Positions 8 to 16,855 are shown, counted from the stretch's first letter. The stretch: DNA of 64,000 nucleotides from an uncultured Rubrivivax sp. (GCA_964371495.1 CAYJOA010000004.1:2625-66624), one strand, 5' to 3'. A program made the numbers and translations. Notes: generated from the sequence alone by a model not told the origin.

Positions 8-253
8 ATGGTGACGGCGATGATGAGCGATGCAGCCGACGGCGTCATGAACGGCATGAGGGGCAGCACGCCGATCTCGATGTCAATGGGCGGAATGATG
101 GGCGGCGGCAATATGTCACCTGCGGCCGGCGCTGGCGGCCTCGCCGCGGCAATGACGTCATTCATGAACTCGTCGGCAAACGCCTCCGGCATGACCGCGG
201 CAGACATGGCTGCCCTGATCCAGAAGCTGGCGAACTGCGACGGTCGAATCTGA
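8..253 (+). CDS. Met/Gly-rich small protein, probably 5'-partial (frame open to window edge); putative copper-associated accessory protein
   Basis: 81-aa ORF with no stop back to nt 2. Runs such as MSMGGMMGGGNM and MTSFMNSSANASGM. Its TGA overlaps the ATG of the downstream multicopper oxidase (TGATG at 251-255). No family recognised. Confidence 0.35.
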   Translation: MVTAMMSDAADGVMNGMRGSTPISMSMGGMMGGGNMSPAAGAGGLAAAMTSFMNSSANASGMTAADMAALIQKLANCDGRI

Positions 254-1884: not shown

Positions 1885-2000
1885 CCGGTCGTCGATCGGG
1901 GCGGGTCCCCCACCTCCGACGTTCGCTGGCGCACAGACCCCGGCGGCGCAGAGGCGCACGCTCGCACGGACCGCGTTCATCGCATTCGACAGGAGTTGTC

Positions 2001-2201
2001 ATGAAGAGTCTGCACGCCATGACTGCAGGGACGGTTTCAATGGTGGCCAGCGGAATCGCCTCCGCGCAGAGCGGGCCGATGATGAACGGCGGCATGGGCG
2101 GCGTCGGCTGGATGGGCGGGTACGGGGGCTACTGGGTGCCCGTTCTGCTGGTCGTCGTCGTGGGCCTCGTGGCCTGGATCGTGATCCAAAGACGCAAGTG
2201 A
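2001..2201 (+). CDS. Small Met/Gly-rich, C-terminally membrane-anchored peptide (signal peptide + MMNGGMGGVGWMGGYGGY + TM + RRK)
   Basis: 66-aa ORF with AGGAG 5 nt upstream of the ATG. Signal-like N-terminus ending ASAQS, a Met/Gly-rich middle and a hydrophobic tail VPVLLVVVVGLVAWIVI. Lies between the MCO and cusA. Confidence 0.55.
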   Translation: MKSLHAMTAGTVSMVASGIASAQSGPMMNGGMGGVGWMGGYGGYWVPVLLVVVVGLVAWIVIQRRK

Positions 2202-2381
2202 AGAAGGTCTGCGCAGCGGCAGAAACAGCCGGGCCGTGGCCAGGCTGATGAGCTCGGGCACGACCGACTTGGAGGATGTCCTGCATCGGTGCGAACACGG
2301 CCGAGGGTCCGGAAGCGCCGGCGCCTGGTGGGCATCTGCACCGAGCGTCCGGAGACACTGCGCTGGCACGGGTGGCCAGCG

Positions 2382-5300
2382 TCAATCGGCTGTTCCAGCC
2401 GAAAGCGTCGGCGCCGACGTCACTGGTGACGTCTGCGGCCGCTCCCGCCGCAGCTGCCACTGCTTGACCAGCGCATACAGCGCCGGGATCACGCCCAGCG
2501 TCAGCACCGTCGACGAGATCATGCCGCCGACCATCGGCGCCGCGATGCGGCTCATCACCTCCGAGCCGGTGCCGGTGCCCCACATGATCGGCAGCAGGCC
2601 GGCCATGATCGCGACCACCGTCATCATCTTCGGCCGCACGCGCTCTACGGCCCCTTCCATGATGGCCGCATAGAGATCGCTTGCACCCGGCAGCCGGCCC
2701 TCGCGGCGGCAGCGTTCCTTCGCTTCCTCCCAGGCGTGGTCGAGGTAGATCAGCATCACCACGCCGGTCTCGGCCGCGACGCCGGCCAGCGCGATGAAGC
2801 CCACCGCCACCGCCACCGACAGGTTGTAGTCCAGCCACCACATCAGCCACACGCCGCCGACCAGGGCAAAGGGCACCGACAGCATGACGATGAAGGTCTC
2901 GGTCAGGCGCCTGAAGTTCAGATATAGAAGCAGGAAGATCGTCAGCAGCGTCACCGGCACGACGATCTTCATGCGCTCGATGGCGCGCTCCATGGCTTCG
3001 AACTGGCCGCTCCAGGTGATGTAGTAGCCGGGCGGGAATTTCACCTTGTCGGCCACCGACTGGCGCGCCTCGGCCACGTAGGAGCCGATATCGCGGCCGC
3101 GGATGTCGACGAAGATATAGGCAGACAGCAGCGCGTTCTCGGTGCGGATGCCCGGCGCGCCGCGAACCACCACCACCTTGGCCACCTGCCCGAGCGGCAC
3201 CATGGCGCCACCCATGACAGGCACCAGCACCTCGCGTTCAATCTGCTCGGGGTTGCCGCGCAGCCCGCGCGGATAGCGCACCGTGACCCCGAAGCGTTCG
3301 CGGCCTTCGACCGTGGTCGTCACCATCTCGCCGCCGAGCGCGGTGCCGATCACGTCCAGCAGTTCGCCCACCGACAGGCCGTAGCGCGCCAGCTGTGCGC
3401 GGTCGGGCTCGATGTCGAGGTAGCTGCCGCCGGTCAGGCGTTCGGCGAAGGCCGAGGTCGTGCCCGGCACCGCCTTGACGACGGTCTCGATCTCGCGCGC
3501 CAGCTTCTCCATCTCGCCCAGGTCCTTGCCGAAGACCTTGATGCCGATCGGCGTGCGGATGCCGGTGGACAGCATGTCGATGCGCGCCTTGATCGGCATC
3601 GTCCAGGCGTTGGAGATGCCGGGAAACTGCAGCGCCTTGTCCATCTCGGCGATCAGCTTGTCGGCCGTCATGCCCGGCCGCCACTCCTCCTGCGGTTTCA
3701 GGTTGATGACGGTCTCGAACATTTCCACCGGGGCGGGGTCGGTGGCGGTGTTGGCGCGCCCGGCCTTGCCGTAGACCGAACTCACTTCGGGGAAGCTCTT
3801 GATGATCTTGTCCTGCGTCTGCAGCACCTCGGCGGCCTTGGTGATCGACATGCCTGGCAGCGAAGCCGGCATGTACAGCAGCGTGCCTTCGTTGAGCGTC
3901 GGCATGAATTCGCTGCCGAGCCTGGAGGCCGGGTACCAGGTCGCCGCCATCGCGAGCAGGGCCAGCACGATGGTGAGCCCCTTCCAGCGCATCACCGCCT
4001 CGATGATCGGGCGGTAGACCCAGATCAGGAAGCGGTTCACGGGGTTCTTCGCCTCCGGCATGATCTTGCCGCGGATGAACAGCAGCATCAGCACCGGCAC
4101 CAGCGTCACCGACAGCAGCGAGGCGCCGGCCATCGCGAAGGTCTTGGTGTAGGCCAGCGGCGAGAACAGCCGCCCCTCCTGCGATTCCAGCGTGAAGACC
4201 GGCAGGAACGACACCGTGATGATGAGCAGCGAGAAGAACAGCGCCGGCCCGACTTCCTGGCAGGCTGCGATCATCGCGTCGGCACGCTCCTTCAACGAGT
4301 GAACGGGTTTGAGCCGGTCCAGCCGTTCCAGGTGCTTGTGCGCGTTCTCGATCATCACGATCGCAGCGTCGATCATGGCGCCGATGGCGATCGCGATGCC
4401 GCCCAGGCTCATGATGTTGGAGTTCATGCCCAGCAGGCGCATGGCGATGAATGAGATCAGCACGCCCACCGGCAGCATCAGGATCGCCACCAGCGCCGAG
4501 CGCACGTGCATCAGGAAGACGATGCAGACGACGGCGACGATGATGCTCTCCTCGATCAGCGTCACCGTGAGGGTCTTGATCGCGCGGTGAATGAGGTCCG
4601 AGCGGTCGTAGACGGCCTGGATTGACACGCCTTCGGGCAGGCCGGCCGAGATCTCCTCGACCCTGAGCTTCAGGTTGTGGATGACCTCCAGCGCGTTCTC
4701 GCCGAAGCGCGACATCGCGATGCCGGAGACGACCTCGCCTTCGCCGTTCAGCTCCGACAGGCCGCGGCGCTCGTCGGGTGCCATTTCGACGCGGGCGATG
4801 TCGCGGATCAGCACCGGCGTGCCGCCCTCGGCCTTGACGACCAGCATCTCGATGTCGGCCTTGCCGCGAAGGTAGCCCTTGCCGCGCACCATGTACTCGG
4901 TCTCGGCCATCTCGACGACGCGGCCGCCGACGTCGCGGTTGGAGTCGCGGATGACCTGCGACACCTTCATCAGCGGGATGCCGTAGCTGCGCAGCTTGAG
5001 CGGATCGACGGTGACCTGGTAGGTCTGCACGAAGCCGCCGATCGACGCCACCTCGGCCACGCCCTGCGCCTTGGTGAGCTGGTAGCGCACGTACCAGTCC
5101 TGGATCGTGCGCAGTTCGGCCAGGGTCTTGTTCTTGGCCAGCAGCGCGTACTGGTAGACCCAGCCGACGCCGGTGGCGTCGGGCCCAAGCGACGGCGACA
5201 CACCCTTGGGTAGGCGGCTGGAGGCGAAGTTCAGATATTCGAGCACGCGACTGCGCGCCCAGTAGATGTCAGTGCCATCCTCGAAGATGACGTAGACGAA

Positions 5301-5573
5301 GGAGGCGCCGAAGAACGAGAAGCCGCGCACGACCTTGCTCTTGGGCACCGCCAGCATCGCCGTCGTCAGCGGGTAGGTCACCTGGTCCTCGACGACCTGC
5401 GGCGCCTGGCCCGGATATTCCGTGTAGACGATGACCTGCACGTCCGACAGGTCGGGCAGGGCGTCGAGCGGCGTCTTCATGACCGCGACGACACCACCGA
5501 TGACGACGAACAAGGTGGCGAGCAGGATCAGGAACGGGTTCCTGCCCGACCACTGGATGATCTTGGCCAGCAT
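2382..5573 (-). CDS. cusA: Heavy-metal efflux RND transporter, CusA/SilA-type
   Basis: 1063 aa. N-terminus MLAKIIQWSGRNPFLILLATLFVV and overall HME-RND character. Last gene of a C-B-A order with adaptor and OMF genes directly upstream on the same strand. Confidence 0.92.
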   Translation of the reverse strand: MLAKIIQWSGRNPFLILLATLFVVIGGVVAVMKTPLDALPDLSDVQVIVYTEYPGQAPQVVEDQVTYPLTTAMLAVPKSKVVRGFSFFGASFVYVIFEDGTDIYWARSRVLEYLNFASSRLPKGVSPSLGPDATGVGWVYQYALLAKNKTLAELRTIQDWYVRYQLTKAQGVAEVASIGGFVQTYQVTVDPLKLRSYGIPLMKVSQVIRDSNRDVGGRVVEMAETEYMVRGKGYLRGKADIEMLVVKAEGGTPVLIRDIARVEMAPDERRGLSELNGEGEVVSGIAMSRFGENALEVIHNLKLRVEEISAGLPEGVSIQAVYDRSDLIHRAIKTLTVTLIEESIIVAVVCIVFLMHVRSALVAILMLPVGVLISFIAMRLLGMNSNIMSLGGIAIAIGAMIDAAIVMIENAHKHLERLDRLKPVHSLKERADAMIAACQEVGPALFFSLLIITVSFLPVFTLESQEGRLFSPLAYTKTFAMAGASLLSVTLVPVLMLLFIRGKIMPEAKNPVNRFLIWVYRPIIEAVMRWKGLTIVLALLAMAATWYPASRLGSEFMPTLNEGTLLYMPASLPGMSITKAAEVLQTQDKIIKSFPEVSSVYGKAGRANTATDPAPVEMFETVINLKPQEEWRPGMTADKLIAEMDKALQFPGISNAWTMPIKARIDMLSTGIRTPIGIKVFGKDLGEMEKLAREIETVVKAVPGTTSAFAERLTGGSYLDIEPDRAQLARYGLSVGELLDVIGTALGGEMVTTTVEGRERFGVTVRYPRGLRGNPEQIEREVLVPVMGGAMVPLGQVAKVVVVRGAPGIRTENALLSAYIFVDIRGRDIGSYVAEARQSVADKVKFPPGYYITWSGQFEAMERAIERMKIVVPVTLLTIFLLLYLNFRRLTETFIVMLSVPFALVGGVWLMWWLDYNLSVAVAVGFIALAGVAAETGVVMLIYLDHAWEEAKERCRREGRLPGASDLYAAIMEGAVERVRPKMMTVVAIMAGLLPIMWGTGTGSEVMSRIAAPMVGGMISSTVLTLGVIPALYALVKQWQLRRERPQTSPVTSAPTLSAGTAD

Positions 5574-5585
5574 GGTGTACTCCGC

Positions 5586-7226
5586 TCAGTGGCCGCTGTG
5601 GGAAGTGGAACCCGCACCGGTGGCCGGTGCGGCCGGCTTTGCGGGTGCGGGCGCGGCGCCGCCCGTCCGCGGCGCGGCACCGATCGAGGTCACCACGTAC
5701 TCGCCGGGCTGGCGCTCGACGAATTCGAAGCTCACCTTTTGTCCAGGCTTCAAGCCCGCCAGCAGGGCGCCGTTGGCGGCCTTGAATTCCATCGTCATCG
5801 CCGGCCACTTCAGGCTGTCGACCGGGCCGTGGTTGAGGCTCACCGTGCCGGCCTGCAGGTCGACGCTGTCCACGCTGCCCTCGGCCTTGTGGCCCACCGT
5901 CGCCGGTGCCGGTGAGGTGCTGGCAGCTGGCGCCGCCGGGGCGGCACCCATGCCGCCGATGGCGGCCTTGAGGTTGCTCTCGGCGTCGATGAGGAAATTG
6001 GCAGCGACGACGACCTGTTCGCCGTCGCTCACGCCCTTGACGACCTCGACGAAGTTCTCGCCACGGGCGCCCAGTTCGACATCGCGCGGTTCGAAGCGCC
6101 CCTCCTGCACCTGCACGAGCACGATGCGCCGCGCACCGGTGTCGATGATCGCGGAGTCCGGCACGGTGAGCACCGGCGCCTTGCCGCCGACGGTGACTTG
6201 GACCTGCGCGAACATCGCTGGCTTCAATCTCTGGCCCGGGTTGGCCAGTTCCACCCGCACCGGGACGCTGCGGGTCTCCGCCGTCATGGTCGGGTAGACG
6301 AAGGTGATGCGACCGTCGAAGACCTCGTTGGGATACGCGGTGGTGGTGACCCGTGCCCTGGCGCCGGTCTTGACGAGGCCGATGTCCTGCTCGGACACGT
6401 CGGCAATGACCCACACCGACGACAGGTCGGTGATCTGGTACAGCATCTCGCCGGGCATGAAGCGCATGCCCTGCAGCGCCTTCTTCTCGGTGACCACACC
6501 CGACACCGGCGAGGGGAAAGTGACGGTGCGCTGGGGCTGGCCCGTTCTCACCAGGGCTTCCAGTTGTGCGGGCGCGAGTTCCCAGTGGCGCAGGTGGGCC
6601 AGGCTCGACTCGGCCAGTTGCGCCATGCCACCCTGAGCCTCGGCGCCCGCGTCCTTCATGGCCCGCAGGCCTTGCGCCGCAATGAGGTATTCGCGCTGCG
6701 CGGCCACCAGTTCGGGGCTATAGGCCTCGAACAGCGGCTGACCGCGGCTCACGTGCTGGCCGGTGACGTTGACGAGGAGCTTCTCGACATAGCCCTCGAA
6801 TTTCGGGGCGATCACGGCGACGCGCCGCTCGTCGGGTTCGACTCGTCCTGCCGCGCGCACCGTCCTGCCGAGCAGGCGCAGGCTCGCGGCCTCGGTGCGC
6901 ACGCCCAGCTTCTGGACCTTCTCGGTGCTGATGCGCAGCTGGGCGGACCCCCCCGCCGCGGCGGGCGAACTGTCCTCGTCCTCGCCCTCGTAGACCGCGA
7001 CGTAGTCCATGCCCATCGGGTCCTTCTTCGGCGTCGGCGACGTGTCGGGCAGGCCCATCGGGTTGCGGTAGTAGAGCAGCTTGCGCGCCTTGGGTGCCGA
7101 GGCGGCCGCCGTCGTGGCCGCATCCTCGCCGGGCGCATGCGCCTGGGAACGGGATCCGAGCCAGTAGCTGGTGGCGCCCACGGCGCCGAGCACGACGATG
7201 GCGAGCAGGGTGGTCACGGTCTTCAC
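5586..7226 (-). CDS. cusB: Efflux RND periplasmic adaptor CusB/SilB-type with C-terminal CusF-like metallochaperone domain
   Basis: 546 aa with a membrane-fusion-protein core (HlyD-like). The C-terminal ~70 aa read VDLQAGTVSLNHGPVDSLKWPAMTMEFKA..., carrying the CusF-type H/W/M/M ligand pattern. GTG start overlaps the cusC stop (GTGA). Confidence 0.88.
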   Translation of the reverse strand: MKTVTTLLAIVVLGAVGATSYWLGSRSQAHAPGEDAATTAAASAPKARKLLYYRNPMGLPDTSPTPKKDPMGMDYVAVYEGEDEDSSPAAAGGSAQLRISTEKVQKLGVRTEAASLRLLGRTVRAAGRVEPDERRVAVIAPKFEGYVEKLLVNVTGQHVSRGQPLFEAYSPELVAAQREYLIAAQGLRAMKDAGAEAQGGMAQLAESSLAHLRHWELAPAQLEALVRTGQPQRTVTFPSPVSGVVTEKKALQGMRFMPGEMLYQITDLSSVWVIADVSEQDIGLVKTGARARVTTTAYPNEVFDGRITFVYPTMTAETRSVPVRVELANPGQRLKPAMFAQVQVTVGGKAPVLTVPDSAIIDTGARRIVLVQVQEGRFEPRDVELGARGENFVEVVKGVSDGEQVVVAANFLIDAESNLKAAIGGMGAAPAAPAASTSPAPATVGHKAEGSVDSVDLQAGTVSLNHGPVDSLKWPAMTMEFKAANGALLAGLKPGQKVSFEFVERQPGEYVVTSIGAAPRTGGAAPAPAKPAAPATGAGSTSHSGH

Positions 7227-8545
7227 AGGTCTTCTCCCAGGATTCTTTCGATCTCGGCCAGGCGCAGTTGCGCCTCGACCTGCGTCTTGAGCAGTTCCTG
7301 CCGCGCCGAGCGGATCTGGCGCTGGGCTTCGAGCAGCATCGCAAATTCGGCCTTGCCGTTCTCGTAGGCCGCCAGGGCAGACTGCAGGCTCAGTTCAGAC
7401 TGCGGCAGCAACTGGGTCTTCACCAGCGCCTCGCTGCGCCGCGCGGCATCCAGGCTGGCCAGCTTGCCGGCCAGTTCGCCGAGCAGTTGGTGCTGCAACG
7501 CATCGGCGCGCGATCGCGCGGCAGCGACCATGGCTTCGGCTTCGCGTTCCTGGCCGCGACGAGACTCCTGCTGCAGCGGGATGTTCATCTCGAACATCAG
7601 GCCCCAGGTGGTGATGCGTGTGCCCATCTGGGTCGGCACCACACCGACCTGGAGATCGGGGTAGCGGTTCTGCAGCGTGAGCTCGCGATTCTTCTGCGCG
7701 GCGCCCAGGCGGGCCAGTTCGGCCACGATCTGCGGATTGCGCACCCGTGCCCGCTCGGCCAGCGACGCGGCATCGGCGGTGGTCAGCGCCGGCGGCTCGC
7801 GCAGCGCCCGCGGGTCGGCCAAGGGGGCTGTGCCGTCGCGCGCCAGCAGGCCGTTCAGCATCGCCCGCAGCTGACGCTTCTCGCTGTCGAGGGCGATCAG
7901 TTCGGCGCGCATGGTGGTCTGCTCCAGCTGCGCGCGGATCGCGTCCGACTGGCCGACCAGGCCTCCGGCGTAACGGGCCTGCGCGACCTGCTCGAGTCGT
8001 GACATCAGTTGCAGCACTTCGGCGGCCAGGCGTTCGTTGCCGGCGGCGCGGTAATACTCGGCATAGACGACCTTGATGCGGGCCGCCAGTTCGGCCCAGG
8101 TGGCTTCCGTGCGGGCTTCGGCCTGCCTGGCGTCGGCGGCGGCGGCATCGCGCCGCAGATCGCGCTTGCCCCACAGCGGAAAGGTCTGCATCAGCGTGTA
8201 TTTCGTCTCGCCGACCTTGGACGGCAGCAGGCTGGGCGAAGCGCCGCTGGCGTAGTTGTTGATGTCCATGAGCTCGATGCGCAGCACCGGGTCGGGCAGG
8301 GCGCCCGCGGGCCCGATGCGCTGTGCCGCCGCGTCGGCCTCCTGCCGCATGGCGTTCAGTTCCGGGCTCTGTGCTTGTGCGAACGCCAGCAGTCCCCGCA
8401 GGTCGGAGCCCAGCGGGGCCTCTTGCGCCAGGGCCGGGCCCAAGGCACCAGCGAACGCCAGCAGGCCGCACGCCAGACCACGTGCCCATTGCCGGGCAAG
8501 CTCGGTGCGATTGGGTCCAAGGACTCGTTCTGAAAAGGTCGACAT
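7223..8545 (-). CDS. cusC: Outer-membrane efflux factor, CusC-type
   Basis: OMF (TolC-family) character. Start taken at the internal ATG at 8545 (MSTFSERV...LACGLLAFAGALGPALAQE signal-like). The 79-aa upstream extension of the ORF looks non-coding. Confidence 0.85.
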   Translation of the reverse strand: MSTFSERVLGPNRTELARQWARGLACGLLAFAGALGPALAQEAPLGSDLRGLLAFAQAQSPELNAMRQEADAAAQRIGPAGALPDPVLRIELMDINNYASGASPSLLPSKVGETKYTLMQTFPLWGKRDLRRDAAAADARQAEARTEATWAELAARIKVVYAEYYRAAGNERLAAEVLQLMSRLEQVAQARYAGGLVGQSDAIRAQLEQTTMRAELIALDSEKRQLRAMLNGLLARDGTAPLADPRALREPPALTTADAASLAERARVRNPQIVAELARLGAAQKNRELTLQNRYPDLQVGVVPTQMGTRITTWGLMFEMNIPLQQESRRGQEREAEAMVAAARSRADALQHQLLGELAGKLASLDAARRSEALVKTQLLPQSELSLQSALAAYENGKAEFAMLLEAQRQIRSARQELLKTQVEAQLRLAEIERILGEDL

Positions 8546-8858
8546 GGTTCGGCTCCTCGGACTGTGTCGGCATCGGGCATGGCGCCAGGCGCCGGCAGCG
8601 GGTTGGGTCTGTGCTGACGAGGTCAGTGTCGGGAAAGAGAAAAGGAAGGAGGCAACGAGAGTGCCGATCGAGCTCATGACGAGGAAGTCCAGAGAGGTGA
8701 ATACACAAGGTTCGGTGGACCTGCGCGCCATCGGTGAGCGAGGGTCGAACTCGAAGAGGAGCCCGTCGCTCGCGATCACCACCGGACGGTGGCAGTCAGC
8801 AGGAGGCGGTGGTGCACCGGTCAGGGCAGCCGTGGCGGCTGTCTGCCAGTGTCAGGCG

Positions 8859-10377: not shown

Positions 10378-10560
10378 AAGGGCAAGGAAGCGCTGGCGGT
10401 CAATGCTGCGGCGGTGATACTGGCGCACAACCATCCGTCGGGAGCAGCCGAGCCGAGCCGAGCCGACGAGTTCCTCACGCAGACGCTGAAGACCGCGCTG
10501 GCGCTGGTGGACATGCGGGTGCTCGATCACCTGGTGGTGGTCGGCGCTGACGTGACTACC
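10378..10560 (+). pseudogene. radC: radC (JAB/MPN-domain) C-terminal fragment
   Basis: The ORF 10282-10581 frame reads [54 protein letters not shown]. This is the RadC JAMM motif HNHPSG..PS..D and C-terminal region. The N-terminal ~2/3 of a RadC protein is absent. Confidence 0.7.
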
Positions 10561-10562
10561 CG

Positions 10563-10868
10563 ATGGCCTACCTGGAGATGAACCCCGAAGATGCACGCAC
10601 GTTGGGCGTCACAGCGGGCGACTTGGTCGAGGTCTGGAACGACTTCGGCAGCACCTACGCCATGGCCTACCCGATGAAGTCGATCAAGCCGGGGCAGACC
10701 TTCATGCTGTTCGGCTTCATCAAGGGCGTGCACGGCGACGTCGTCACGTCGTGGGTCGACCGCAACGTGGTGCCCTACTACAAGGGCACCTGGGGCAGCA
10801 TCAAGCGCGTGGGCAGCGTCGACGACTGGAAGCAGAACATCAGCTTCAAGGAGCGGCGATACACCTGA
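10563..10868 (+). pseudogene. aioA: Arsenite oxidase large subunit (AioA) 3'-terminal fragment
   Basis: 101 aa: [30 protein letters not shown]...[38 protein letters not shown]...SFKERRYT. This is the C-terminal molybdopterin-binding barrel of a DMSO-reductase-family enzyme, AioA-like by recollection. No aioB or rest of aioA lies upstream. Confidence 0.65.
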
Positions 10869-11001
10869 GCCAGTGAGTCTTGTCTCCTCGCAGTGCTTGA
10901 CGCTGCGTTCGGGGGTGCCTGCGGGCACCCCCGTTTTCGGTGAGCTATCGGCCGCCCATCACTTCGGGCAGTCGCATTTAATTGCTCATCATGTCGACGC
11001 A

Positions 11002-11577
11002 TCACGCTGGCGCAACACGAGCAGGCACCGCTGCTGATCGGCCACGCTGCAGCAGAACAGCATCGAGCCACGCCGCCCATGCAACGGGGTCGACGGGCAG
11101 CAGGGGCGCTTCACCGATGAAGCGCTGCCAGGCATCGACGTGGGCCGGTGCCACCACGGTCAACACAGGAATGCCTCGGCCCAGGAGGGCCAGCAGTTCG
11201 GCAACGAACCCTCCGTTCGTCGCCTCGAGTGAGCCGAAGCGATTGCAGACGACAAGATCCGGGGAGCGGTCAAGCGCGTCGCGAAGGACTCGGCTTGCCC
11301 GCGCAAAGCCTTGTGGATCCGCGCTGCAGGAAGCCGACTCGGAACCCAATGCCTGCGAGACCAGGTACTCCTCACCGGTGTCGATGTCGGTCAGCACCAT
11401 CGCCGCCTTGCATCCGTCGCCACGATCGCGGTGCTTCATCACGAGACCGAGAACCCTGCGTCCTGCGCAGCGTTGCCGTTCGACAAAAGCCACCAGCAGG
11501 TCGTCAAGGTCGATGCGCCCGTCATGGCGAATGGCAGCCGCCGTGGGCTGTTCGTCGGGACCCAAGTCGTGATTCAT
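11002..11577 (-). CDS. DUF2478-like (THEP1/NTPase-like) protein
   Basis: Start at internal ATG 11577 (MNHDLGPDEQ...). Pattern ...VVCNRFGSLEATNGGFVAELLALLGRGIPVLTVV. Adjacent to mobB. Family recalled from memory, not verified. Confidence 0.45.
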   Translation of the reverse strand: MNHDLGPDEQPTAAAIRHDGRIDLDDLLVAFVERQRCAGRRVLGLVMKHRDRGDGCKAAMVLTDIDTGEEYLVSQALGSESASCSADPQGFARASRVLRDALDRSPDLVVCNRFGSLEATNGGFVAELLALLGRGIPVLTVVAPAHVDAWQRFIGEAPLLPVDPVAWAAWLDAVLLQRGRSAAVPARVAPA

Positions 11578-12157: not shown

Positions 12158-12360
12158 GGGACTCCATGGCTGTATGTAGGGCGCATTCTGCCGGGCGGGT
12201 GGGACCCGACGGGCCGGTCGAATTTCGGGAATACCCGGGCCCCTATTACTCCTGTGGTCTTTGTTTCTCTGCTTTGCCGCAGATCAATGTTGCGCCGCAC
12301 AAGCCCCCACAAACTCGCGTCGATCGAAAAACCAAGCGCGTCGACGCGCAGGAGCTGGCA

Positions 12361-14919
12361 ATGAGGCTGACGAGGCGAACCTTCATCATGGCGTCCGGCG
12401 CTGCTGCCGGCTGGATGGCCACCGGCTGCGCAACGGGGCCGGCATCCGCCCCCGTCACCAGCGCGTTCACGCCGCGCAAGGCCAGGGCCTCGGCACCAGC
12501 CCCGGGCGATTGGGTGGCCAGCACCTGCCAGGGTTGCACGCAATGGTGCGCGATCCAGATCTTCGTCAGCGATGGGCGCGCCGTGCGCGTGCGCGGCAAC
12601 CCGATCAGCAAGTCCAATCACGGCTTCGTGTGCCCGCGCGGCCACATGATCCCGCAGCAGATGTACGACCCCGACCGCATCAAGACGCCGATGAAGCGCA
12701 CGAACCCGGCCAAGGGCCGGGGCATCGACCCCAAGTTCGTGCCCATCAGCTGGGACGAGGCGCTGAACACCGTGGCCGACAAGATGATCGAACTGCGCAA
12801 GGCCGGTGAGCCGCACAAGCTCATGTACATGCGCGGCCGTTACTCACCCACGTCCACGGATCTGCTCTACGGCACGCTGCCCAAGATCTGGGGCACGCCC
12901 AATTATTTCTCGCACAGCGCCATCTGCGCCGAGGCCGAGAAGATGGGCCCGGGTCTCACCCAGGGCTTCTTCGGCTACCGCGACTACGACCTCGAGAAGA
13001 CCAACTGCCTGGTGATCTGGGGCTGCGACCCGTTGGCCTCCAACCGCCAGGTGCCCAACACCATCCACCGCTTCCACGAGATCGTCAAGCGCGGCACGGT
13101 AATCGTGGTCGACCCGCGGCTGTCCAACGCCGCCGCCAAGTCGCAGGAGTGGCTGCCGATCAATCCCGGCACCGACGGTGCCCTGGCCGGTGCGCTGGCG
13201 CATGTGCTGCTGACCGAAGGCCTGTGGAGCCGCGAATTCGTGGGTGACTTCAAGGACGGCAGGAACCTCTTCGTCGCCGGCAAGGCGGTCGATGAAGCAG
13301 CCTTCGCCGAGAAGGAAACCAACGGCGTCGTCAAGTGGTGGAACCTGGAGCTCAAGGACCGCACGCCGGCCTGGGCCGAGAAGGAAACGCTGATCCCCGC
13401 CGCGCAGATCGTGCGCGTGGCCCGTGCCATGGGCAAGGGCGGCTCCAAGACCGCGGTGTGGATGGGCCCGGGTGCGGCGATGCACCCGCGCGGCACCTAC
13501 AGCTCGATGGCCGTGCACGCCCTCAACGGCCTGGTGGGTTCGATCGACACCGAAGGCGGCGTCTGGCAGAGCAGCAGCGTTTCGTTGGGCAAGTTCCCCA
13601 GTGCCGACAAATATGTCGACGAGATCGCCAAGACCGGCAGCAAGGGCAAGAAGCTCGACGGCCGCGGCGCCAAGGACATGCCCGCGATGATGAACGCCAA
13701 GCCCGGCAGTGGCGTCGTCACCAACAACGTGGCCAACGGGATGCTCAAGGATCCGGGCGCGGTGAAGGTCTTCATCGCCAGCTGGGCCAACTTCAACTTC
13801 TCCTGCACTGGCGCCGACCGCTGGGACAAGGCCTTGGCCAAGGTGCCGTTCTTCGTGCACTTGGTCACCAATCCGTCGGAGATGACGCAGTTCGCCGACA
13901 TCGTGCTGCCGTCCACCTTCAATTCGGCCGAGGGCTGGTCCATCGTCGGCAACATGGCCAACGGCCACGGTTATGCGTCGATCCAGCAGGCCGCCGTGAA
14001 GCGCCTGTGGGACGTCAAGCAGGAAGAAACGGAAGTGATGTGGCTGCTGGCCGAGAAGCTCAAGGCCAAAGGCTTCCCGAATCTCTTCGACTACTACTCG
14101 AAGGAATTCAAGGACCCGGAAACCGGCAAGCTGCCGACGACGGCGCTGGAGTTCAGCGAGATGGCCACCAAGATCAGCAGCGCCACGCTGTGGATGCCCA
14201 AGGAGCCGCTCAAGGGCGACGCGCCTGTTGCCGGCTGGGCCGACTTCAAGAAGAAGGGCATGTTCAGCGGCCCGAAGTACACGCTGAAGAAGGGCTGGGG
14301 GGGCAAGTTCGCCACCGAGACCAAGAAGTTCGAGTTCTACAGCGAGACCTTGAAGAAGGGGTTGCTCGAACACGCCAAGAAGTTCGAGACCACCACCGAT
14401 GACATCCTGGCCGTCAGCGGCTACGTGGCGCGCGGCGACGTGGCCTTCGTGCCGCACTACGAGCCACCCAAGCGGCATGGCAGCGTGGCCGACTACCCGT
14501 TCACCTTCGTCGACTACAAGTCGCGCCTGAACCGCGAAGGCCGCAGCGCCAACCTGCCCTGGTACCAGGAGTTCAAGAAGGTCGATCCGGGCGATGTGTC
14601 CTGGGGCGACGTGCTGAAGATGAACCCCGCAGACGGCGCCAGGCTCGGCCTGAAGACGGGCGATACGGTCCGCATCACTTCGATGGCCGGCTCCATCGTC
14701 ACCCAGCTCAAGCTGTGGGAAGGGCTGCGTCCCGGCACCGTGGCCAAGTGCTACGGCCAGGGCCACTGGGCCTACGGCCGAGTGGCCGCCAAGGACTACG
14801 CCAAGGCACTGCCCCTGGGCGGCAACAACAACGAGATCCTGGTCGATGACTACGACCGGCTCAGCGGGTCCACGGCCCGCAACGGCGGCTTCACCGGCGT
14901 GAAGATCGCCAAGGTCTGA
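12361..14919 (+). CDS. Tat-exported molybdopterin oxidoreductase catalytic subunit, Arr/Psr/Phs clade (ArrA-like features)
   Basis: Start at ATG 12361: MRLTRRTFIMASGAAAGWMATGCA (twin-Arg leader, possible lipobox). FS0 cluster motif C-x2-C-x3-C-x27-C (CQGCTQWC...27 aa...C). RGRY at nt 12832-12843. ~852 aa. Confidence 0.8.
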   Translation: MRLTRRTFIMASGAAAGWMATGCATGPASAPVTSAFTPRKARASAPAPGDWVASTCQGCTQWCAIQIFVSDGRAVRVRGNPISKSNHGFVCPRGHMIPQQMYDPDRIKTPMKRTNPAKGRGIDPKFVPISWDEALNTVADKMIELRKAGEPHKLMYMRGRYSPTSTDLLYGTLPKIWGTPNYFSHSAICAEAEKMGPGLTQGFFGYRDYDLEKTNCLVIWGCDPLASNRQVPNTIHRFHEIVKRGTVIVVDPRLSNAAAKSQEWLPINPGTDGALAGALAHVLLTEGLWSREFVGDFKDGRNLFVAGKAVDEAAFAEKETNGVVKWWNLELKDRTPAWAEKETLIPAAQIVRVARAMGKGGSKTAVWMGPGAAMHPRGTYSSMAVHALNGLVGSIDTEGGVWQSSSVSLGKFPSADKYVDEIAKTGSKGKKLDGRGAKDMPAMMNAKPGSGVVTNNVANGMLKDPGAVKVFIASWANFNFSCTGADRWDKALAKVPFFVHLVTNPSEMTQFADIVLPSTFNSAEGWSIVGNMANGHGYASIQQAAVKRLWDVKQEETEVMWLLAEKLKAKGFPNLFDYYSKEFKDPETGKLPTTALEFSEMATKISSATLWMPKEPLKGDAPVAGWADFKKKGMFSGPKYTLKKGWGGKFATETKKFEFYSETLKKGLLEHAKKFETTTDDILAVSGYVARGDVAFVPHYEPPKRHGSVADYPFTFVDYKSRLNREGRSANLPWYQEFKKVDPGDVSWGDVLKMNPADGARLGLKTGDTVRITSMAGSIVTQLKLWEGLRPGTVAKCYGQGHWAYGRVAAKDYAKALPLGGNNNEILVDDYDRLSGSTARNGGFTGVKIAKV

Positions 14920-14948
14920 GCCCGCCCACCGTAGCTAAGGAAAACATC

Positions 14949-15722
14949 ATGACAAGACTTGGAATGGTCATCGACCTGGGCCGGTGCGTGGGTTGCGGCG
15001 CTTGTGCCTTTGCCTGCAAGGCCGAGAACAACACCCGCACGCGCAATGGCGGCCAGAGCCACAACTGGGCCGACTTCATCATGCGCACCGAAGGGGTCTT
15101 CCCAAACGTCACGCACTTCGTGATGCCGGTGCTGTGCAACCACTGCAGCGAAGCGCCCTGCATCACCGCCTGCCCGGTGAAGCCGAACAAGGCGATGTTC
15201 AAGACGCCCGAAGGCATCACCCTGCACGACCCGGAGCTGTGCATCGGCTGCCGGCAGTGCCAGGAGGCCTGCCCCTACAGCCACGAGGAACTGGGCGCCT
15301 CCAGCCTGAACGGCGAGACCTACAGCGTCATCAGCTACAACGAAGCCGACAAGAGCACGCAGCCTTTCTGGGAAGACAAGACCGCAGCCATCCCGGGGGG
15401 TACGTCGTCCGGTGCCGAAGTGGCGGCCAGGGCCGGAGCGCCGATCCCTGCGATGACGAAGTGGACCGGCGGCGATGTGCAGCCCATCCGCAAGGGCGAC
15501 GTGGTCGAGAAGTGCACCTTCTGCTACCACCGCACGATCAACGGCCTGCAGCCGGCGTGCGTGGAGGTCTGCCCCTCGCAGGCGCGCATCTTCGGTGACC
15601 AGGAAGACGCGAACAGCCCGATCGCGATGCTGTTGAAGAAGGAGAAGTCCTTCCGCCTGCAGGAGGACAAGGGCACCAAGCCCAACGTCCACTACATTGG
15701 CAAATACAGCGTTCGTGCCTGA
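14949..15722 (+). CDS. 4Fe-4S ferredoxin-type electron-transfer subunit (ArrB/PsrB-like)
   Basis: Multiple CxxCxxCxxxCP clusters (CVGCGACAFAC, CNHCSEAPCITACP, CIGCRQCQEACP, CTFC...CVEVCP), directly downstream of the catalytic subunit. Confidence 0.88.
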   Translation: MTRLGMVIDLGRCVGCGACAFACKAENNTRTRNGGQSHNWADFIMRTEGVFPNVTHFVMPVLCNHCSEAPCITACPVKPNKAMFKTPEGITLHDPELCIGCRQCQEACPYSHEELGASSLNGETYSVISYNEADKSTQPFWEDKTAAIPGGTSSGAEVAARAGAPIPAMTKWTGGDVQPIRKGDVVEKCTFCYHRTINGLQPACVEVCPSQARIFGDQEDANSPIAMLLKKEKSFRLQEDKGTKPNVHYIGKYSVRA

Positions 15723-15780
15723 CAGGCCGGCGCGAAGTACAACGGGGCCGGGATCACCCGGCCCTTTTTTTGGAGCAGAG

Positions 15781-16425
15781 ATGTCGGACACCGACGAAGA
15801 CAAGGCCAGCGCGCGCGAAGACCTGTGCCGCTTCCTGGCCGCCTGCTACTACGAGCCGACGGTCGAGTTCACCGAAGAGCGGCTGTTCGACTCCATGCTC
15901 GCGGCAGCCGAACGGCTGGACCCCGAACTCGCTGCACACACACGCCGCCTTGGCGAGGCCTTCGAAGCGGCCGGCCCGCAGGAGCTGCTGGTGGACTACA
16001 GCCGGCTTTTCCTGGGCCCGGTGCAGGCGCTGGCCCGGCCCTATGCCTCGGTGTGGCTGACTGGCGAGAACGTGGTGATGCAGGACACGACGATGGAGTT
16101 GCTCCAGCTCTACGAGCAGGGCGGCTTTGCCATCGACGAGAACTTCCAGGAACTGCCCGACCACGTGGCGGTGGAGCTGGAATTCCTGTACCTGCTGACG
16201 CACCAGCTGAACCAGGCGCAGGCCAGCGGCGACGCCGAGGCGCTGCAGGCCTTGCAGGTGCTGCGCACCGCTTTCCTTGACGGCCACTTGGGGCGCTGGC
16301 TGGGCGGTTTCATCCTGGCCGTGCACGACCACGCGCAGACCGACTTCTACCGCGAGTTGGCCGAGCTGACCGAGCTGTTCGTGCGGCTGGAAGGGCAGGC
16401 CCAGGCTACCGCGACGCGGCATTGA
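15781..16425 (+). CDS. TorD/DmsD-family redox-enzyme maturation chaperone
   Basis: Start at ATG 15781 (MSDTDEDKASAREDLCRFLAACYYEP). Motif PDHVAVELEFLYLL is typical of TorD-like chaperones. Confidence 0.75.
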   Translation: MSDTDEDKASAREDLCRFLAACYYEPTVEFTEERLFDSMLAAAERLDPELAAHTRRLGEAFEAAGPQELLVDYSRLFLGPVQALARPYASVWLTGENVVMQDTTMELLQLYEQGGFAIDENFQELPDHVAVELEFLYLLTHQLNQAQASGDAEALQALQVLRTAFLDGHLGRWLGGFILAVHDHAQTDFYRELAELTELFVRLEGQAQATATRH

Positions 16426-16444
16426 CGGGGATCGCGGCGCGCGC

Positions 16445-16855
16445 GTGTCGCTGAGCACTAACGCAGGCCGCCAGCCCATGCATACATCGACGGTGCATGT
16501 GGCCTGCCTTTGCGCCGGCTGGTGCCACCTCTGCGACGACTACCGCGCTGTCCTGCGCAGCGTGGCCGCGGAAATGGATCCCGGCGCGGCGAATCTGCGC
16601 TGGCACTGGATCGACATCGAGGACGAGGCCGACCTGGTCGGCGAGGTCGATGTGGAGACCTTTCCGACGCTCGTCATCGCAGTTGGCACCACCGTACGGT
16701 TCGCAGGCCCGCTGACGCCGCATCCGGACACGCTGCGGCGGCTGTTGCGGGCAACCGTGGTTGACGAGCCTGGGGCCAGGCGATGGCCGACGGTGAGCGG
16801 CGAGTTTCAGGCGTTCGCGGCGCGCCTTGTGCTACGAGCCAAAGGCGCGCCTTGA
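16445..16855 (+). CDS. Cytoplasmic thioredoxin-fold protein (WCHLC active site)
   Basis: ACLCAGWCHLCDDYRAV...DIEDEADLVGEVDVETFPTLVI is a thioredoxin-like layout with no signal peptide. Start uncertain (GTG 16445 or ATG 16475). Confidence 0.55.
   Translation: MSLSTNAGRQPMHTSTVHVACLCAGWCHLCDDYRAVLRSVAAEMDPGAANLRWHWIDIEDEADLVGEVDVETFPTLVIAVGTTVRFAGPLTPHPDTLRRLLRATVVDEPGARRWPTVSGEFQAFAARLVLRAKGAP

What the first reader, a model, noticed from the sequence alone, without database searches (positions are those of the whole stretch)
12361..16855. Arr-like molybdoenzyme operon (catalytic, Fe-S, TorD, thioredoxin-like) without a membrane anchor, next to an aioA relic
The catalytic subunit is ~852 aa. 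It has a twin-arginine leader followed by a possible lipobox (WMATGC), an FS0 motif with exact C-x2-C-x3-C-x27-C spacing, and the sequence YMRGRYSP (nt 12832-12843). As I recall it, respiratory arsenate reductases ArrA carry a conserved (R/K)GRY motif contributing arsenate-binding Arg/Tyr, whereas ArxA has xGRGWG. The size also fits ArrA/ArxA better than PsrA/PhsA. The Fe-S subunit and TorD chaperone follow, but no NrfD/PsrC/ArrC-type membrane subunit is adjacent. Instead there is a cytoplasmic WCHLC thioredoxin-fold gene. mobB and DUF2478 lie divergently upstream. So the element may have replaced arsenite oxidation (the aioA remnant) with arsenate respiration, or with a related unknown reductase. 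Substrate cannot be decided from sequence reading.
Basis: partly seen in the sequence, partly recalled or inferred. Interest (0 to 1): 0.6.

Follow-up and report, generated by a model that had tools for sequence, protein, structure and literature searches.

The report
Burkholderiales-type respiratory arsenate reductase operon
This is a complete arrA-arrB-arrD gene set for reducing arsenate to arsenite; it belongs to a widespread freshwater and groundwater Burkholderiales lineage that the literature already counts as arrA but that databases label only "molybdopterin oxidoreductase", and how the enzyme gets its electrons is still unclear.

Summary
Window 12361-16855 encodes a Tat-exported molybdoenzyme (852 aa), a four-cluster Fe-S subunit, a TorD-type chaperone and a thioredoxin-fold protein.

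**Identity.** The catalytic subunit matches the solved Shewanella ANA-3 ArrA over its full length (898 bits; next best, PsrA, 163 bits). The RGRY motif and the residues equivalent to His189, Ser190, Cys193, Lys198 and Tyr210 are all conserved. In trees it sits in a 100%-supported RGRY clade, apart from GRGW (Arx-like) sequences.

**Relatives.**
- arrABD is the conserved core in 80 named relatives (Rubrivivax, Rhodoferax, Sulfuritalea and others).
- The thioredoxin-like gene and DUF2478 occur in none of them.
- Lack of ArrC is normal for this clade.

**aioA relic.** It is real. Two relatives carry an intact aioXSR-aioBA at that position. The same assembly holds an intact aioA on another contig, so arsenite oxidation was not replaced.

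**Not found in the papers I searched.**
- A lipobox follows the Tat signal in 51 of 76 relatives.
- An FNR-type box lies upstream of arrA.
- An arrB-arrD attenuator hairpin is present.
- Several carriers lack both NapC/CymA and menaquinone genes.

The scan has noted anchor-less arr clusters on other DNA before.

**Verdict.** A new member of a known kind, of moderate interest.

The parts
12274..12287 (+). FNR/CRP-family box TTGCCGCAGATCAA, 87 nt before the arrA ATG. It is a candidate site for anaerobic activation.
   Evidence: It matches TTGAT-N4-ATCAA at 8 of 10 positions. Similar boxes occur in 41 of 75 relatives' upstream regions, against 11.8% of random 260-nt windows, and mostly lie at -78 to -93.
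12361..14919 (+). arrA, the catalytic Mo-bisMGD subunit (852 aa). It has a Tat signal, a lipobox Cys23, the FS0 cysteines, RGRY at 158-161, and H185, S186, C189, K194 and Y206.
   Evidence: (898 bits to 6cz7_A).
14949..15722 (+). arrB, the four-[4Fe-4S] electron-transfer subunit (257 aa). It has no signal peptide of its own.
   Evidence: NF041715 ArrB scores 233 bits. The best solved match is 6cz7_B (ArrB) at 196 bits. It is adjacent to arrA in 77 of 80 relatives.
15744..15772 (+). GC-rich hairpin followed by T7, between arrB and arrD. It looks like an intrinsic terminator or attenuator.
   Evidence: A hairpin plus T-run sits at the same position, with different stem sequences, in at least 29 of 72 relatives.
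15781..16425 (+). arrD, a TorD/DmsD-family Tat-proofreading and cofactor-insertion chaperone (214 aa from the ATG).
   Evidence: PF02613 E 1.6e-30. It is present in 71 of 80 relatives. The start is inferred from homologues' N-termini.
16445..16855 (+). Cytoplasmic thioredoxin-fold protein with CLCAGWCHLC. It lies 19 nt after arrD, is not a conserved arr gene, and is an island-borne paralogue of a common family.
   Evidence: Pfam PF00085 scores 23.8 bits. The Atlas places it in a 'thioredoxin family' cluster at 0.98. The AF2 model (pLDDT 82.5) matches thioredoxins. Homologues occur in 0 of 80 arr loci but in 190 of 301 genomes of the family. A second copy, 71% identical, lies on own contig C11.
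11642..12157 (-). mobB, the MGD-biosynthesis adaptor, divergent from arrA.
   Evidence: PF03205 E 9.5e-46; TIGR00176 139 bits. It lies next to arrABD in 16 of 80 relatives.
11002..11575 (-). DUF2478 gene downstream of mobB. It is an insertion relative to relative L048.
   Evidence: PF10649 E 2.7e-43. It is absent from 80 of 80 related loci. Window-L048 homology is interrupted between 10938 and 11753.
10551..10868 (+). aioA relic: the last ~83-105 codons of the arsenite oxidase large subunit. Its own terminator hairpin at 10910-10933 is retained.
   Evidence: TIGR02693 positions 724-806 of 806, E 1.4e-35. It is 97.1% nt identical to the 3' end of the intact aioA on contig C32.
10384..10545 (+). 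RadC JAB-domain fragment abutting the aioA relic. It marks the rearrangement junction.
   Evidence: PF04002 E 4.6e-20, model positions 57-110 of 121.

Best explanation
arrA-arrB-arrD encode a periplasmic respiratory arsenate reductase of the Arr type.

**Assembly (inferred from family knowledge).** ArrD holds pre-ArrA in the cytoplasm while Mo-bisMGD and the FS0 cluster are inserted; the neighbouring mobB helps supply the cofactor. The folded ArrAB dimer is exported by Tat on ArrA's twin-arginine signal.

**Lipid anchoring (inferred from sequence pattern only).** The signal ends in a lipobox, so mature ArrA probably starts at a lipidated Cys23. A roughly 27-residue Pro/Ala/Ser tether would then hold it on a membrane.

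**Catalysis (shown by homology).** Electrons pass through the four ArrB clusters and FS0 to the Mo centre. There arsenate, bound by R160, Y161, H185, S186, K194 and Y206, is reduced to arsenite.

**Regulation (inferred).** Transcription is probably switched on under anoxia through an FNR-type site. A hairpin after arrB keeps arrD and the downstream thioredoxin-like gene at a lower level.

**Electron donor (not shown).** The donor is not encoded in the operon. The most likely one in this genome is a stand-alone NapC/NirT (CymA-like) tetrahaem quinol dehydrogenase on contig C33, as in Shewanella.

**Context.** The operon rides on a conjugative arsenic island carrying acr3, arsR, arsI, arsC, arsM, SoxAX and VirB4/VirD4. 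The island once also carried aioBA beside it.
For: ArrA identity:
- Full-length match to the solved ANA-3 ArrA: E 4.7e-269, 898 bits, residues 47-849. RGRY and the H, S, C, K and Y active-site positions align without gaps. Residue numbering follows PMC13685797.
- The NCBIfam ArrA model is the top hit at 1015 bits; the next, PhsA, scores 236 bits.
- The RGRY clade is separated from the rest, including GRGW-type sequences, with 100% support in both FastTree and IQ-TREE.
- A GRGW representative scores only 369 bits to 6cz7_A.

ArrB: the best solved match is ArrB chain 6cz7_B.

Conservation: arrABD is conserved in 80 named relatives.

Regulation and export signals:
- FNR-type box enrichment upstream of arrA.
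- A lipobox in 51 of 76 relatives.

Genomic context:
- ars, acr3 and arsM genes on the same island.
- A NapC/NirT homologue in the genome.
- MenB and MenE in the assembly.

Expression (weak): RNA-library contigs 85-100% alike cover arrA-arrB in three metatranscriptome studies.

Literature: Burkholderiaceae and Rhodocyclaceae arrA with RGRY are counted as As(V) reducers, and DNA-SIP implicates Ramlibacter and Sulfuritalea (PMC11283718). Rubrivivax- and Sulfuritalea-type arrA reads and Rhodoferax-dominated As(V)-respiring enrichments are reported in PMC8290898.
Against: - No member of this clade has been assayed or shown in pure culture to respire arsenate. PMC8290898 says so for Rhodoferax.
- Scores are below NCBIfam's equivalog cut-offs (1015 < 1600; 233 < 450).
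- No quinol-oxidising partner is linked to the operon.
- Of 5 related carriers, 3 lack a strong NapC/NirT homologue.
- None of those 5 has MenB or MqnA/D. Published work ties Arr to menaquinone.
- The assembly's MenA/MenG contig has a different GC content and carries V-type ATPase genes, so it may be mis-binned.
- Arr enzymes are reversible in vitro (my own knowledge).
- The trees contain no named reference sequences. The anchor to characterised ArrA is by pairwise scores to the PDB entry.
Confidence: 0.75

Rival explanations
1. The enzyme is Arr-like in sequence but works in the cell mainly in reverse, or in both directions. It would oxidise arsenite and pass electrons to periplasmic c-type cytochromes or ubiquinone, like Arx.
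For: - The clade has no ArrC (0 of 80).
- Relatives place it directly beside aioXSR-aioBA.
- Some relatives have a dihaem or small cytochrome c next to arrD.
- Five related carriers show no MenB or Mqn genes, and Arx correlates with ubiquinone hosts (PMC13685797).
- Arr is reversible in vitro (my own knowledge).
Against: - The RGRY motif, not GRGWG, is invariant in the clade. The literature uses it as the Arr/Arx discriminator.
- The genome already has an intact AioBA for arsenite oxidation.
- The FNR-type box fits an anaerobic terminal reductase.
- SIP and enrichment data point to As(V) reduction (PMC11283718, PMC8290898).
Confidence: 0.1
2. It reduces another oxyanion or sulfur compound (selenate, antimonate, thiosulfate or polysulfide), and arsenate is not the physiological substrate.
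For: - MopB enzymes shift substrates.
- Scores are below the ArrA equivalog cut-off.
- The island also carries sulfur-handling genes (SoxAX, rhodaneses).
Against: - Every arsenate-contacting residue of ANA-3 ArrA is conserved.
- PhsA and PsrA similarity is far weaker.
- Neighbours in this window and in relatives are arsenic genes: ars, acr3, arsM, aio and aioXSR/arrXSR-like sensors.
- The ArxA/ArrA lineage is reported to be specific for arsenic oxyanions (PMC10100899).
Confidence: 0.05
3. The operon is silent or decaying cargo of a mobile element in this host, intact in sequence but not used.
For: - It sits in a rearranged region with a RadC fragment, an aioA relic and a DUF2478 insertion.
- Its distribution is patchy: 5 close carriers in 300 family genomes and none in two same-genus genomes.
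- Some relatives have broken copies: L023 is split over two frames and L095 has an in-frame stop.
Against: - All three genes are full length with conserved catalytic and cluster residues.
- Synteny is conserved, as are a promoter-region box and an attenuator hairpin.
- RNA-library contigs up to 99% or more alike cover arrA-arrB.
Confidence: 0.08

Closest known systems
Shewanella sp. ANA-3 ArrAB (PDB 6CZ7-6CZA), which takes electrons from CymA
   Same: - A two-subunit enzyme with no arrC.
- A full-length match of both subunits (898 and 196 bits).
- The same FS0 spacing, RGRY motif, Mo-ligand Cys and H, S, K and Y pocket.
- The electron donor is encoded elsewhere. This genome has a NapC/NirT-family tetrahaem cytochrome.
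   Different: - Here a TorD-type arrD follows arrB.
- The ArrA signal peptide ends in a lipobox, followed by a ~27-residue tether.
- ArrB is about 23 residues longer.
- The host is a high-GC betaproteobacterium, and related carriers often lack CymA-like and menaquinone genes.
- Scores are below the NCBIfam equivalog cut-offs.
Burkholderiaceae/Rhodocyclaceae arrA clade reported from mine tailings, peat and groundwater metagenomes (PMC11283718, PMC8290898)
   Same: The same lineage. The closest relatives are 74-87% identical and come from Rubrivivax, Rhodoferax, Ramlibacter, Sulfuritalea, Leptothrix and Hydrogenophaga MAGs and a few isolates. All carry RGRY and arrD.
   Different: - That paper describes arrAB flanked by arrDE, with arrE a 4Fe-4S protein. 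I found no polyferredoxin after arrD in 64 related loci with room for one.
- In this window that position holds a thioredoxin-fold gene.
- I found no paper in the library that mentions a lipobox in ArrA.
arrCAB(D)/arrABC-type clusters with an NrfD-family anchor; an example seen here is same-family genome G087 (locus L021)
   Same: The catalytic and Fe-S subunits are homologous (about 54-56% identity). TorD and mobB neighbours are present.
   Different: G087 has an NrfD-like membrane subunit upstream of arrA. The window and all 80 close relatives do not.
ArxAB anaerobic arsenite oxidase
   Same: It belongs to the same MopB lineage (ArxA/ArrA) and is also a Tat-exported A subunit with a four-cluster B subunit.
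   Different: - The Arx signature XGRGWG is absent; RGRY is present.
- A GRGW-type representative is about 35% identical to the window's protein and scores 369 bits to ArrA against 898 for the window's protein.
- The two fall on opposite sides of a 100%-supported split.

Membership tests
Respiratory arsenate reductase ArrAB (Arr) | MopB/DMSO-reductase-family catalytic subunit with a twin-arginine signal | tested here: met
   PF04879, PF00384 and PF01568 are all present. TRRTFIM lies at residues 4-10.
Respiratory arsenate reductase ArrAB (Arr) | FS0 [4Fe-4S] motif C-x2-C-x3-C-x27-C | tested here: met
   C56, C59, C63 and C91, read. They are invariant in alignment A1.
Respiratory arsenate reductase ArrAB (Arr) | (R/K)GRY motif at the position of ANA-3 residues 163-166 | tested here: met
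   R158-G159-R160-Y161 aligns without gaps to chain residues 123-126 of 6cz7_A, which are native residues 163-166. The motif definition comes from PMC13685797 and PMC11283718.
Respiratory arsenate reductase ArrAB (Arr) | Mo-ligand Cys193 and pocket residues His189, Ser190, Lys198 and Tyr210 | tested here: met
   C189, H185, S186, K194 and Y206 align to them. The SHS..C..K pattern is shared by nearly all of the RGRY clade.
Respiratory arsenate reductase ArrAB (Arr) | Groups with characterised ArrA rather than ArxA, PsrA, PhsA or TtrA | tested here: met
   - Score to ArrA 6cz7_A is 898 bits; to PsrA 2vpw_A it is 163 bits.
- ArrA model 1015 bits, PhsA 236 bits, TtrA 71 bits.
- Clade support is 100 in two trees.
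- Caveat: named reference sequences could not be put in the tree.
Respiratory arsenate reductase ArrAB (Arr) | Adjacent four-cluster ArrB subunit | tested here: met
   16 Cys in four motifs. The best family is ArrB NF041715 and the best structure is 6cz7_B.
Respiratory arsenate reductase ArrAB (Arr) | Score over NCBIfam equivalog cut-offs (NF041714 at 1600 bits; NF041715 at 450 bits) | tested here: not met
   1015 and 233 bits. This explains why public records name relatives only 'molybdopterin-dependent oxidoreductase'.
Respiratory arsenate reductase ArrAB (Arr) | A quinol-oxidising partner (ArrC or a CymA-type cytochrome) | tested here: inconclusive
   No ArrC is present in the window or in 80 relatives. 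A NapC/NirT homologue lies on own contig C33, but it is unlinked and is missing from 3 of 5 related carriers.
Respiratory arsenate reductase ArrAB (Arr) | Arsenate-dependent enzyme activity or anaerobic growth | not testable with these tools
   This needs biochemistry or culture work. The library holds no such data for this clade (PMC8290898).
Anaerobic arsenite oxidase ArxAB | XGRGWG active-site motif | tested here: not met
   The sequence at that position is MRGRYS.
Polysulfide/thiosulfate reductase PsrA/PhsA | Family-level similarity to PsrA/PhsA with an adjacent NrfD-type PsrC | tested here: not met
   PhsA model 236 bits against a cut-off of 694. No NrfD gene is adjacent.
Tat-exported bacterial lipoproteins | Lipobox [LVIMAST]-[ASTG]-[GAS]-C at the end of the signal-peptide h-region | tested here: met
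   W-M-A-T-G-C23 in the window. The pattern x-[AST]-G-C occurs in 51 of 76 relatives, while 24 have AxA-type ends. Lipidation itself was not tested.
Thioredoxin family (4th gene) | Thioredoxin fold with a CxxC at the start of helix 1 and a cis-Pro loop | tested here: met
   The AF2 model has pLDDT 82.5, and its top PDB matches are thioredoxins. WCHLC and TFPT are conserved.

The most novel reading that the evidence does not exclude
In this Burkholderiales clade, ArrAB is a lipid-anchored Tat lipoprotein that is not fed by the classical menaquinol-ArrC/CymA route. Instead it exchanges electrons with periplasmic c-type cytochromes. In hosts without menaquinone this would couple arsenate reduction directly to periplasmic sulfur (Sox) oxidation, or let the enzyme run reversibly. 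On this island it sits with a SoxAX/YZ module, which would give a quinone-independent sulfur-arsenic short circuit spread by conjugation.
Probability: 0.15. Interest if true: 0.7.

Novelty: new member of a known kind. Interest (0 to 1): 0.4.

Why it matters
Arsenate-respiring bacteria release arsenic into groundwater.

- **Abundance and naming.** This ArrA lineage is abundant. More than 100 clusters are 81-87% identical, and more than 580 genomic stretches encoding relatives were found among species-representative genomes. Standard annotation names it only as a generic molybdoenzyme, because it falls below the curated ArrA cut-off.
- **Mobility.** Here it is carried on a conjugative arsenic island, so the trait can move between freshwater Burkholderiales.
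- **Open questions.** It is not known where the electrons come from when ArrC, CymA and menaquinone are all missing, or whether the enzyme is lipid-anchored. Both bear on whether these organisms really conserve energy from arsenate. Both can be tested in existing isolates.

Tried and rejected
- **Named reference sequences for the tree.** The first try, with a wider alignment, had no conserved stretch to search with. Cluster look-ups of ten diverse representatives gave no useful names. The plasmid collection holds only one distant hit. The trees therefore rest on unnamed representatives plus pairwise scores to PDB 6cz7.
- **The look-up of encoding contigs.** I took synteny from the genome search, the fetch from genomes and the search for related loci instead.
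- **ArrE.** I looked for a NapF-like polyferredoxin after arrD and found none in 64 loci.
- **Trx-like gene and DUF2478 as conserved arr partners.** Rejected: 0 of 80 loci for each.
- **Cytochrome b561-multihaem fusion.** It is seen next to arrA in Propionivibrio-type loci. It was not found in the own genome.
- **Menaquinone as support for the reductive direction.** This is only partly usable. MenB and MenE are present, but MenA/MenG lie on a contig of odd GC content with V-type ATPase genes, and related carriers lack MenB and Mqn.
- **Near-identical plasmid records for the arr region.** None was found.
- **RNA contigs.** Low cover over arrD and the Trx-like gene in RNA-library contigs is not used as evidence. 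Contigs cannot rank genes, and these less conserved genes map poorly.
- **Sigma-70 promoter scan.** It found nothing.

Full report
**What is there.**

On the plus strand, window 12361-16855 carries four closely spaced genes.
- The first encodes an 852-aa protein with a twin-arginine signal (TRRTFIM). The signal ends in W-M-A-T-G-C23.
- An AGGAG ribosome-binding site lies 8 nt before the ATG at 12361. Homologues start with the same MRLTRRTFIM.
- The second gene (14949-15722) encodes a 257-aa ferredoxin-type protein with 16 cysteines in four cluster motifs.
- The third is a TorD/NarJ-family chaperone (PF02613, E 1.6e-30). Its real start is most likely the ATG at 15781, judged from relatives' N-termini.
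- The fourth (16445-16855) is a 136-aa protein with CLCAGWCHLC and no signal peptide.
- Upstream on the other strand lie mobB and a DUF2478 gene.
- Further upstream, the last 83 residues of an arsenite oxidase large subunit (TIGR02693 positions 724-806 of 806, E 1.4e-35) are fused behind a RadC JAB-domain fragment.

**What the catalytic subunit is.**

- Against all solved structures, the best match by far is ArrA of Shewanella sp. ANA-3 (6cz7_A): E 4.7e-269, 898 bits, query residues 47-849 aligned to chain residues 12-811. The next match is Thermus polysulfide/thiosulfate reductase at 163 bits.
- Chain numbering plus 40 gives native ANA-3 numbering. In that alignment R158-G159-R160-Y161 of the window protein align to R163-G164-R165-Y166. 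H185, S186, C189, K194 and Y206 align to His189, Ser190, Cys193 (the Mo ligand), Lys198 and Tyr210. These are the positions the literature lists as the ArrA active site, and RGRY against GRGWG is the published Arr/Arx discriminator (PMC13685797, PMC11283718).
- In NCBIfam the ArrA model is the top hit (1015 bits over positions 3-848 of 848), followed by PhsA at 236 bits. The ArrB model is the top hit for the second protein at 233 bits. Both are below the very strict equivalog cut-offs (1600 and 450). This explains why public records call the close relatives only "molybdopterin-dependent oxidoreductase".
- ArrB's best solved match is the ArrB chain 6cz7_B at 196 bits.

**Phylogeny.**

- I searched 1.84 billion cluster representatives and built trees from the full-length hits plus named relatives.
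- In FastTree (106 rows) and IQ-TREE (44 rows), the window protein lies in a clade separated from everything else with 100% support. Nearly all members of this clade carry (R/K)GRY, SHS, the Mo-ligand Cys and the Lys.
- A separate 100%-supported group carries GRGW/GRGM at the motif position, as Arx does.
- To anchor these unnamed clades I scored representatives against the ArrA structure. An RGRY-clade representative gives 1028 bits, the window protein 898 bits and the GRGW representative 369 bits.
- Named reference sequences could not be brought into the tree. That remains the one formal gap.

**Relatives and synteny.**

- More than 100 protein clusters are 81-87% identical.
- A scan of species-representative genomes found over 580 stretches encoding relatives. 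The best 80 are 74-86% identical. They come from MAGs and isolates of Rubrivivax, Rhodoferax, Leptothrix, Piscinibacter, Hydrogenophaga, Ideonella, Ramlibacter, Sulfuritalea and Propionivibrio, including Noviherbaspirillum sp. ST9, Rhodoferax sp. U2-2l and Propionivibrio dicarboxylicus DSM 5885.
- Neighbours across these 80 loci:

| Neighbour | Loci with it (of 80) |
|---|---|
| arrB | 77 |
| arrD | 71 |
| mobB | 16 |
| Thioredoxin-like gene | 0 |
| DUF2478 | 0 |
| NrfD-type ArrC | 0 (one weak, distant hit) |

- About 20 loci carry a phosphonate-binding-protein, histidine-kinase and sigma-54-regulator set of the AioXSR/ArrXSR type.
- No locus has a polyferredoxin after arrD (0 of 64 with room), although PMC11283718 describes arrDE.
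- Within the window's own family the gene is patchy. Five close carriers were found in 300 genomes and none in two genomes of the same genus.
- The window also holds VirB4 and VirD4, acr3, arsR, arsI, arsC, arsM and SoxA/SoxX. The operon is therefore cargo of a conjugative arsenic island.

**The aioA relic.**

- In two relatives (L048, a Rubrivivax MAG, and L052), a complete aioX-aioS-aioR, aioB (Rieske) and 827-aa aioA end just upstream of mobB or arrA, at the place where the window has only the last ~100 codons. The ancestral island therefore carried arsenite oxidase and arsenate reductase side by side. In the window the aio genes were cut away at a junction with a RadC fragment.
- The aioA terminator hairpin survives at 10910-10933.
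- DUF2478 is an insertion relative to L048.
- The relic is 97.1% identical in DNA to the 3' end of an intact aioA (1284 bits to TIGR02693) on contig C32 of the same assembly. That gene has aioB and an aioX-like gene beside it.
- The organism, or the population the MAG represents, therefore keeps arsenite oxidation. The idea that arsenate respiration replaced it is not supported.

**The fourth gene.**

- It has a thioredoxin fold. The AF2 model has pLDDT 82.5 and its best PDB matches are all thioredoxins. The Atlas neighbours are "thioredoxin family protein" clusters.
- C-L-C-A-x-W-C-x-x-C and the cis-Pro loop (TFPT) are invariant among homologues.
- Homologues occur in 190 of 301 genomes of the family, almost all without arr. 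The own genome has a second copy, 71% identical, on contig C11.
- It is thus a recruited paralogue of a common cytoplasmic protein, not a defining arr component.
- Sitting 19 nt behind the chaperone gene, it might help keep ArrA's cysteines reduced before cofactor insertion. That is only an inference.

**Features I did not find described.**

1. *Lipobox.* The signal peptide ends in x-[AST]-G-C in 51 of 76 close relatives. The other 24, mostly the Rhodocyclales-like sub-clade, end in AxA-type sites. In the window about 27 Pro/Ala/Ser-rich residues follow Cys23 before the FS0 domain, as expected of a lipoprotein tether. No paper in the library mentions ArrA together with a lipobox.
2. *FNR/CRP-type box.* TTGCCGCAGATCAA lies 87 nt before the ATG. 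Comparable boxes, some of them perfect matches to the consensus (TTGATTTGGATCAA, for example), occur in 41 of 75 relatives against 11.8% of random windows. They cluster at -78 to -93.
3. *Attenuator hairpin.* A GC-rich hairpin with T7 sits between arrB and arrD (15744-15772). At least 29 of 72 relatives have a hairpin plus T-run at the same place with different stem sequences. This suggests that arrAB is the main transcript and arrD is made by read-through.

**How it gets electrons.**

This is the weak link.
- The genome has a stand-alone NapC/NirT-family tetrahaem cytochrome (202 aa, contig C33). None of the flanking ORFs scanned matched any NCBIfam family, so no nap genes were seen beside it. 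This is the family of CymA, which feeds ArrAB in Shewanella (PMC2762525).
- The assembly also has MenB and MenE (contig C8) and MenA and MenG (contig C6). Contig C6 has 71.5% GC and carries V-type ATPase genes, so it may be mis-binned.
- Among five related carriers, only two have a strong NapC/NirT homologue. None has MenB at E <= 1e-90 or MqnA/D. Only one has MenA over the cut-off. One of the five is a complete single-contig genome.
- A few relatives have a dihaem cytochrome c, a small CxxCH protein or a cytochrome b561-multihaem fusion next to the operon.
- Published work ties Arr to menaquinone and Arx to ubiquinone (PMC13685797). An RGRY-type Arr in apparently menaquinone-less hosts is therefore unexplained. 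Rhodoquinone could not be checked.

**Other evidence.**

- The DNA comes from a sediment metagenome. Partial matches occur in freshwater sediment, freshwater and rhizosphere metagenomes.
- Contigs from three metatranscriptome libraries, 85-100% alike, cover arrA and arrB. This is weak evidence that the lineage's arrAB is transcribed in nature.
- The literature already counts this lineage as arrA. Thirty-five Burkholderiaceae and 19 Rhodocyclaceae GTDB genomes carry it. Rubrivivax is the most abundant putative sulfur-oxidising As(V) reducer in tailings, and Ramlibacter and Sulfuritalea are labelled in DNA-SIP (PMC11283718). Rubrivivax- and Sulfuritalea-type arrA reads and Rhodoferax-dominated As(V)-respiring enrichments are reported, with the explicit note that Rhodoferax has never been shown to respire arsenate (PMC8290898).
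- Earlier notes of this scan describe anchor-less arr clusters on other DNA. Notes on this same window cover the RadC/aioA scar and the Sox/arsenic island.

**Verdict.**

This is a genuine Arr-type arsenate reductase operon (arrABD) of the Burkholderiales lineage, a new member of a known kind. The "replacement" idea is not, and the thioredoxin-like gene is not a conserved operon component. Moderate interest rests on three things: the lineage's environmental weight and poor annotation, the predicted lipid anchor, and the unresolved electron supply.

Noticed in passing
window 15744-15772: A terminator-like hairpin (9-bp stem with 8 GC pairs, then T7) lies between arrB and arrD. The same position holds a hairpin plus T-run with different stem sequences in at least 29 of 72 relatives.
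   Followed up: partly
window 12274-12287: An FNR/CRP-type box lies 87 nt upstream of arrA. Similar boxes are enriched and positionally clustered in relatives (41 of 75, against 11.8% background).
   Followed up: partly
L048:2130-6219 and L052:1764-5835: Relatives carry intact aioX, aioB and aioA (with aioS and aioR beyond) directly upstream of mobB/arrABD. Arsenite oxidase and arsenate reductase are therefore neighbours on the ancestral island.
   Followed up: yes
own genome contig C32:10176-12581 (L104): An intact aioA (1284 bits) lies here with aioB and an aioX-like gene. Its 3' end is 97.1% nt identical to the window's relic.
   Followed up: partly
L069:3-1094 (Propionivibrio MAG) and about 5 similar loci: A multihaem cytochrome c fused to a cytochrome b561 membrane domain lies just upstream of arrA. 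It could be an alternative quinol dehydrogenase for Arr in that sub-clade. It was not found in the window's genome.
   Followed up: partly
L021 (G087:C1:113000-132900): A same-family genome has a more distant arr cluster (54-56% identity) with an NrfD-like arrC, arrA, arrB, a TorD-like gene and mobB. A PsrABC-like set lies next to it.
   Followed up: partly
L023 (G248) and L095: Some relatives' copies look broken. In G248 arrA and arrB are split over two frames, and L095 arrA has an in-frame stop near codon 49. These could be decay or assembly errors.
   Followed up: no
own genome contig C6:28000-42000 (L127): menA and a menG/ubiE-type methyltransferase lie beside V-type ATPase subunits B and D on a 71.5% GC stretch, against about 66-67% GC for the window. 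The contig may be mis-binned.
   Followed up: no
L020, L022, L023 and L095, just downstream of arrD on the opposite strand: A 217-221-aa dihaem cytochrome c lies convergent with arrD in a few relatives, with an ECF-sigma-like gene beyond it. DUF2784 lies upstream of mobB in the same loci.
   Followed up: partly
L064, L089, L093, L100 and L101, right after arrD: The Rhodocyclales-type relatives that lack the lipobox often have a small CxxCH protein (about 114-135 aa) directly after arrD. L064 also has a 749-aa protein with 8 CxxCH motifs.
   Followed up: no
own genome contig C11:4597-4962: A second copy of the thioredoxin-like gene lies here, 71% identical. It is presumably the chromosomal original of the island copy.
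   Followed up: no
window 253-8782: A copper module lies upstream: a CueO-like multicopper oxidase and a CusCBA-type RND pump whose membrane-fusion protein carries a CusF domain.
   Followed up: no
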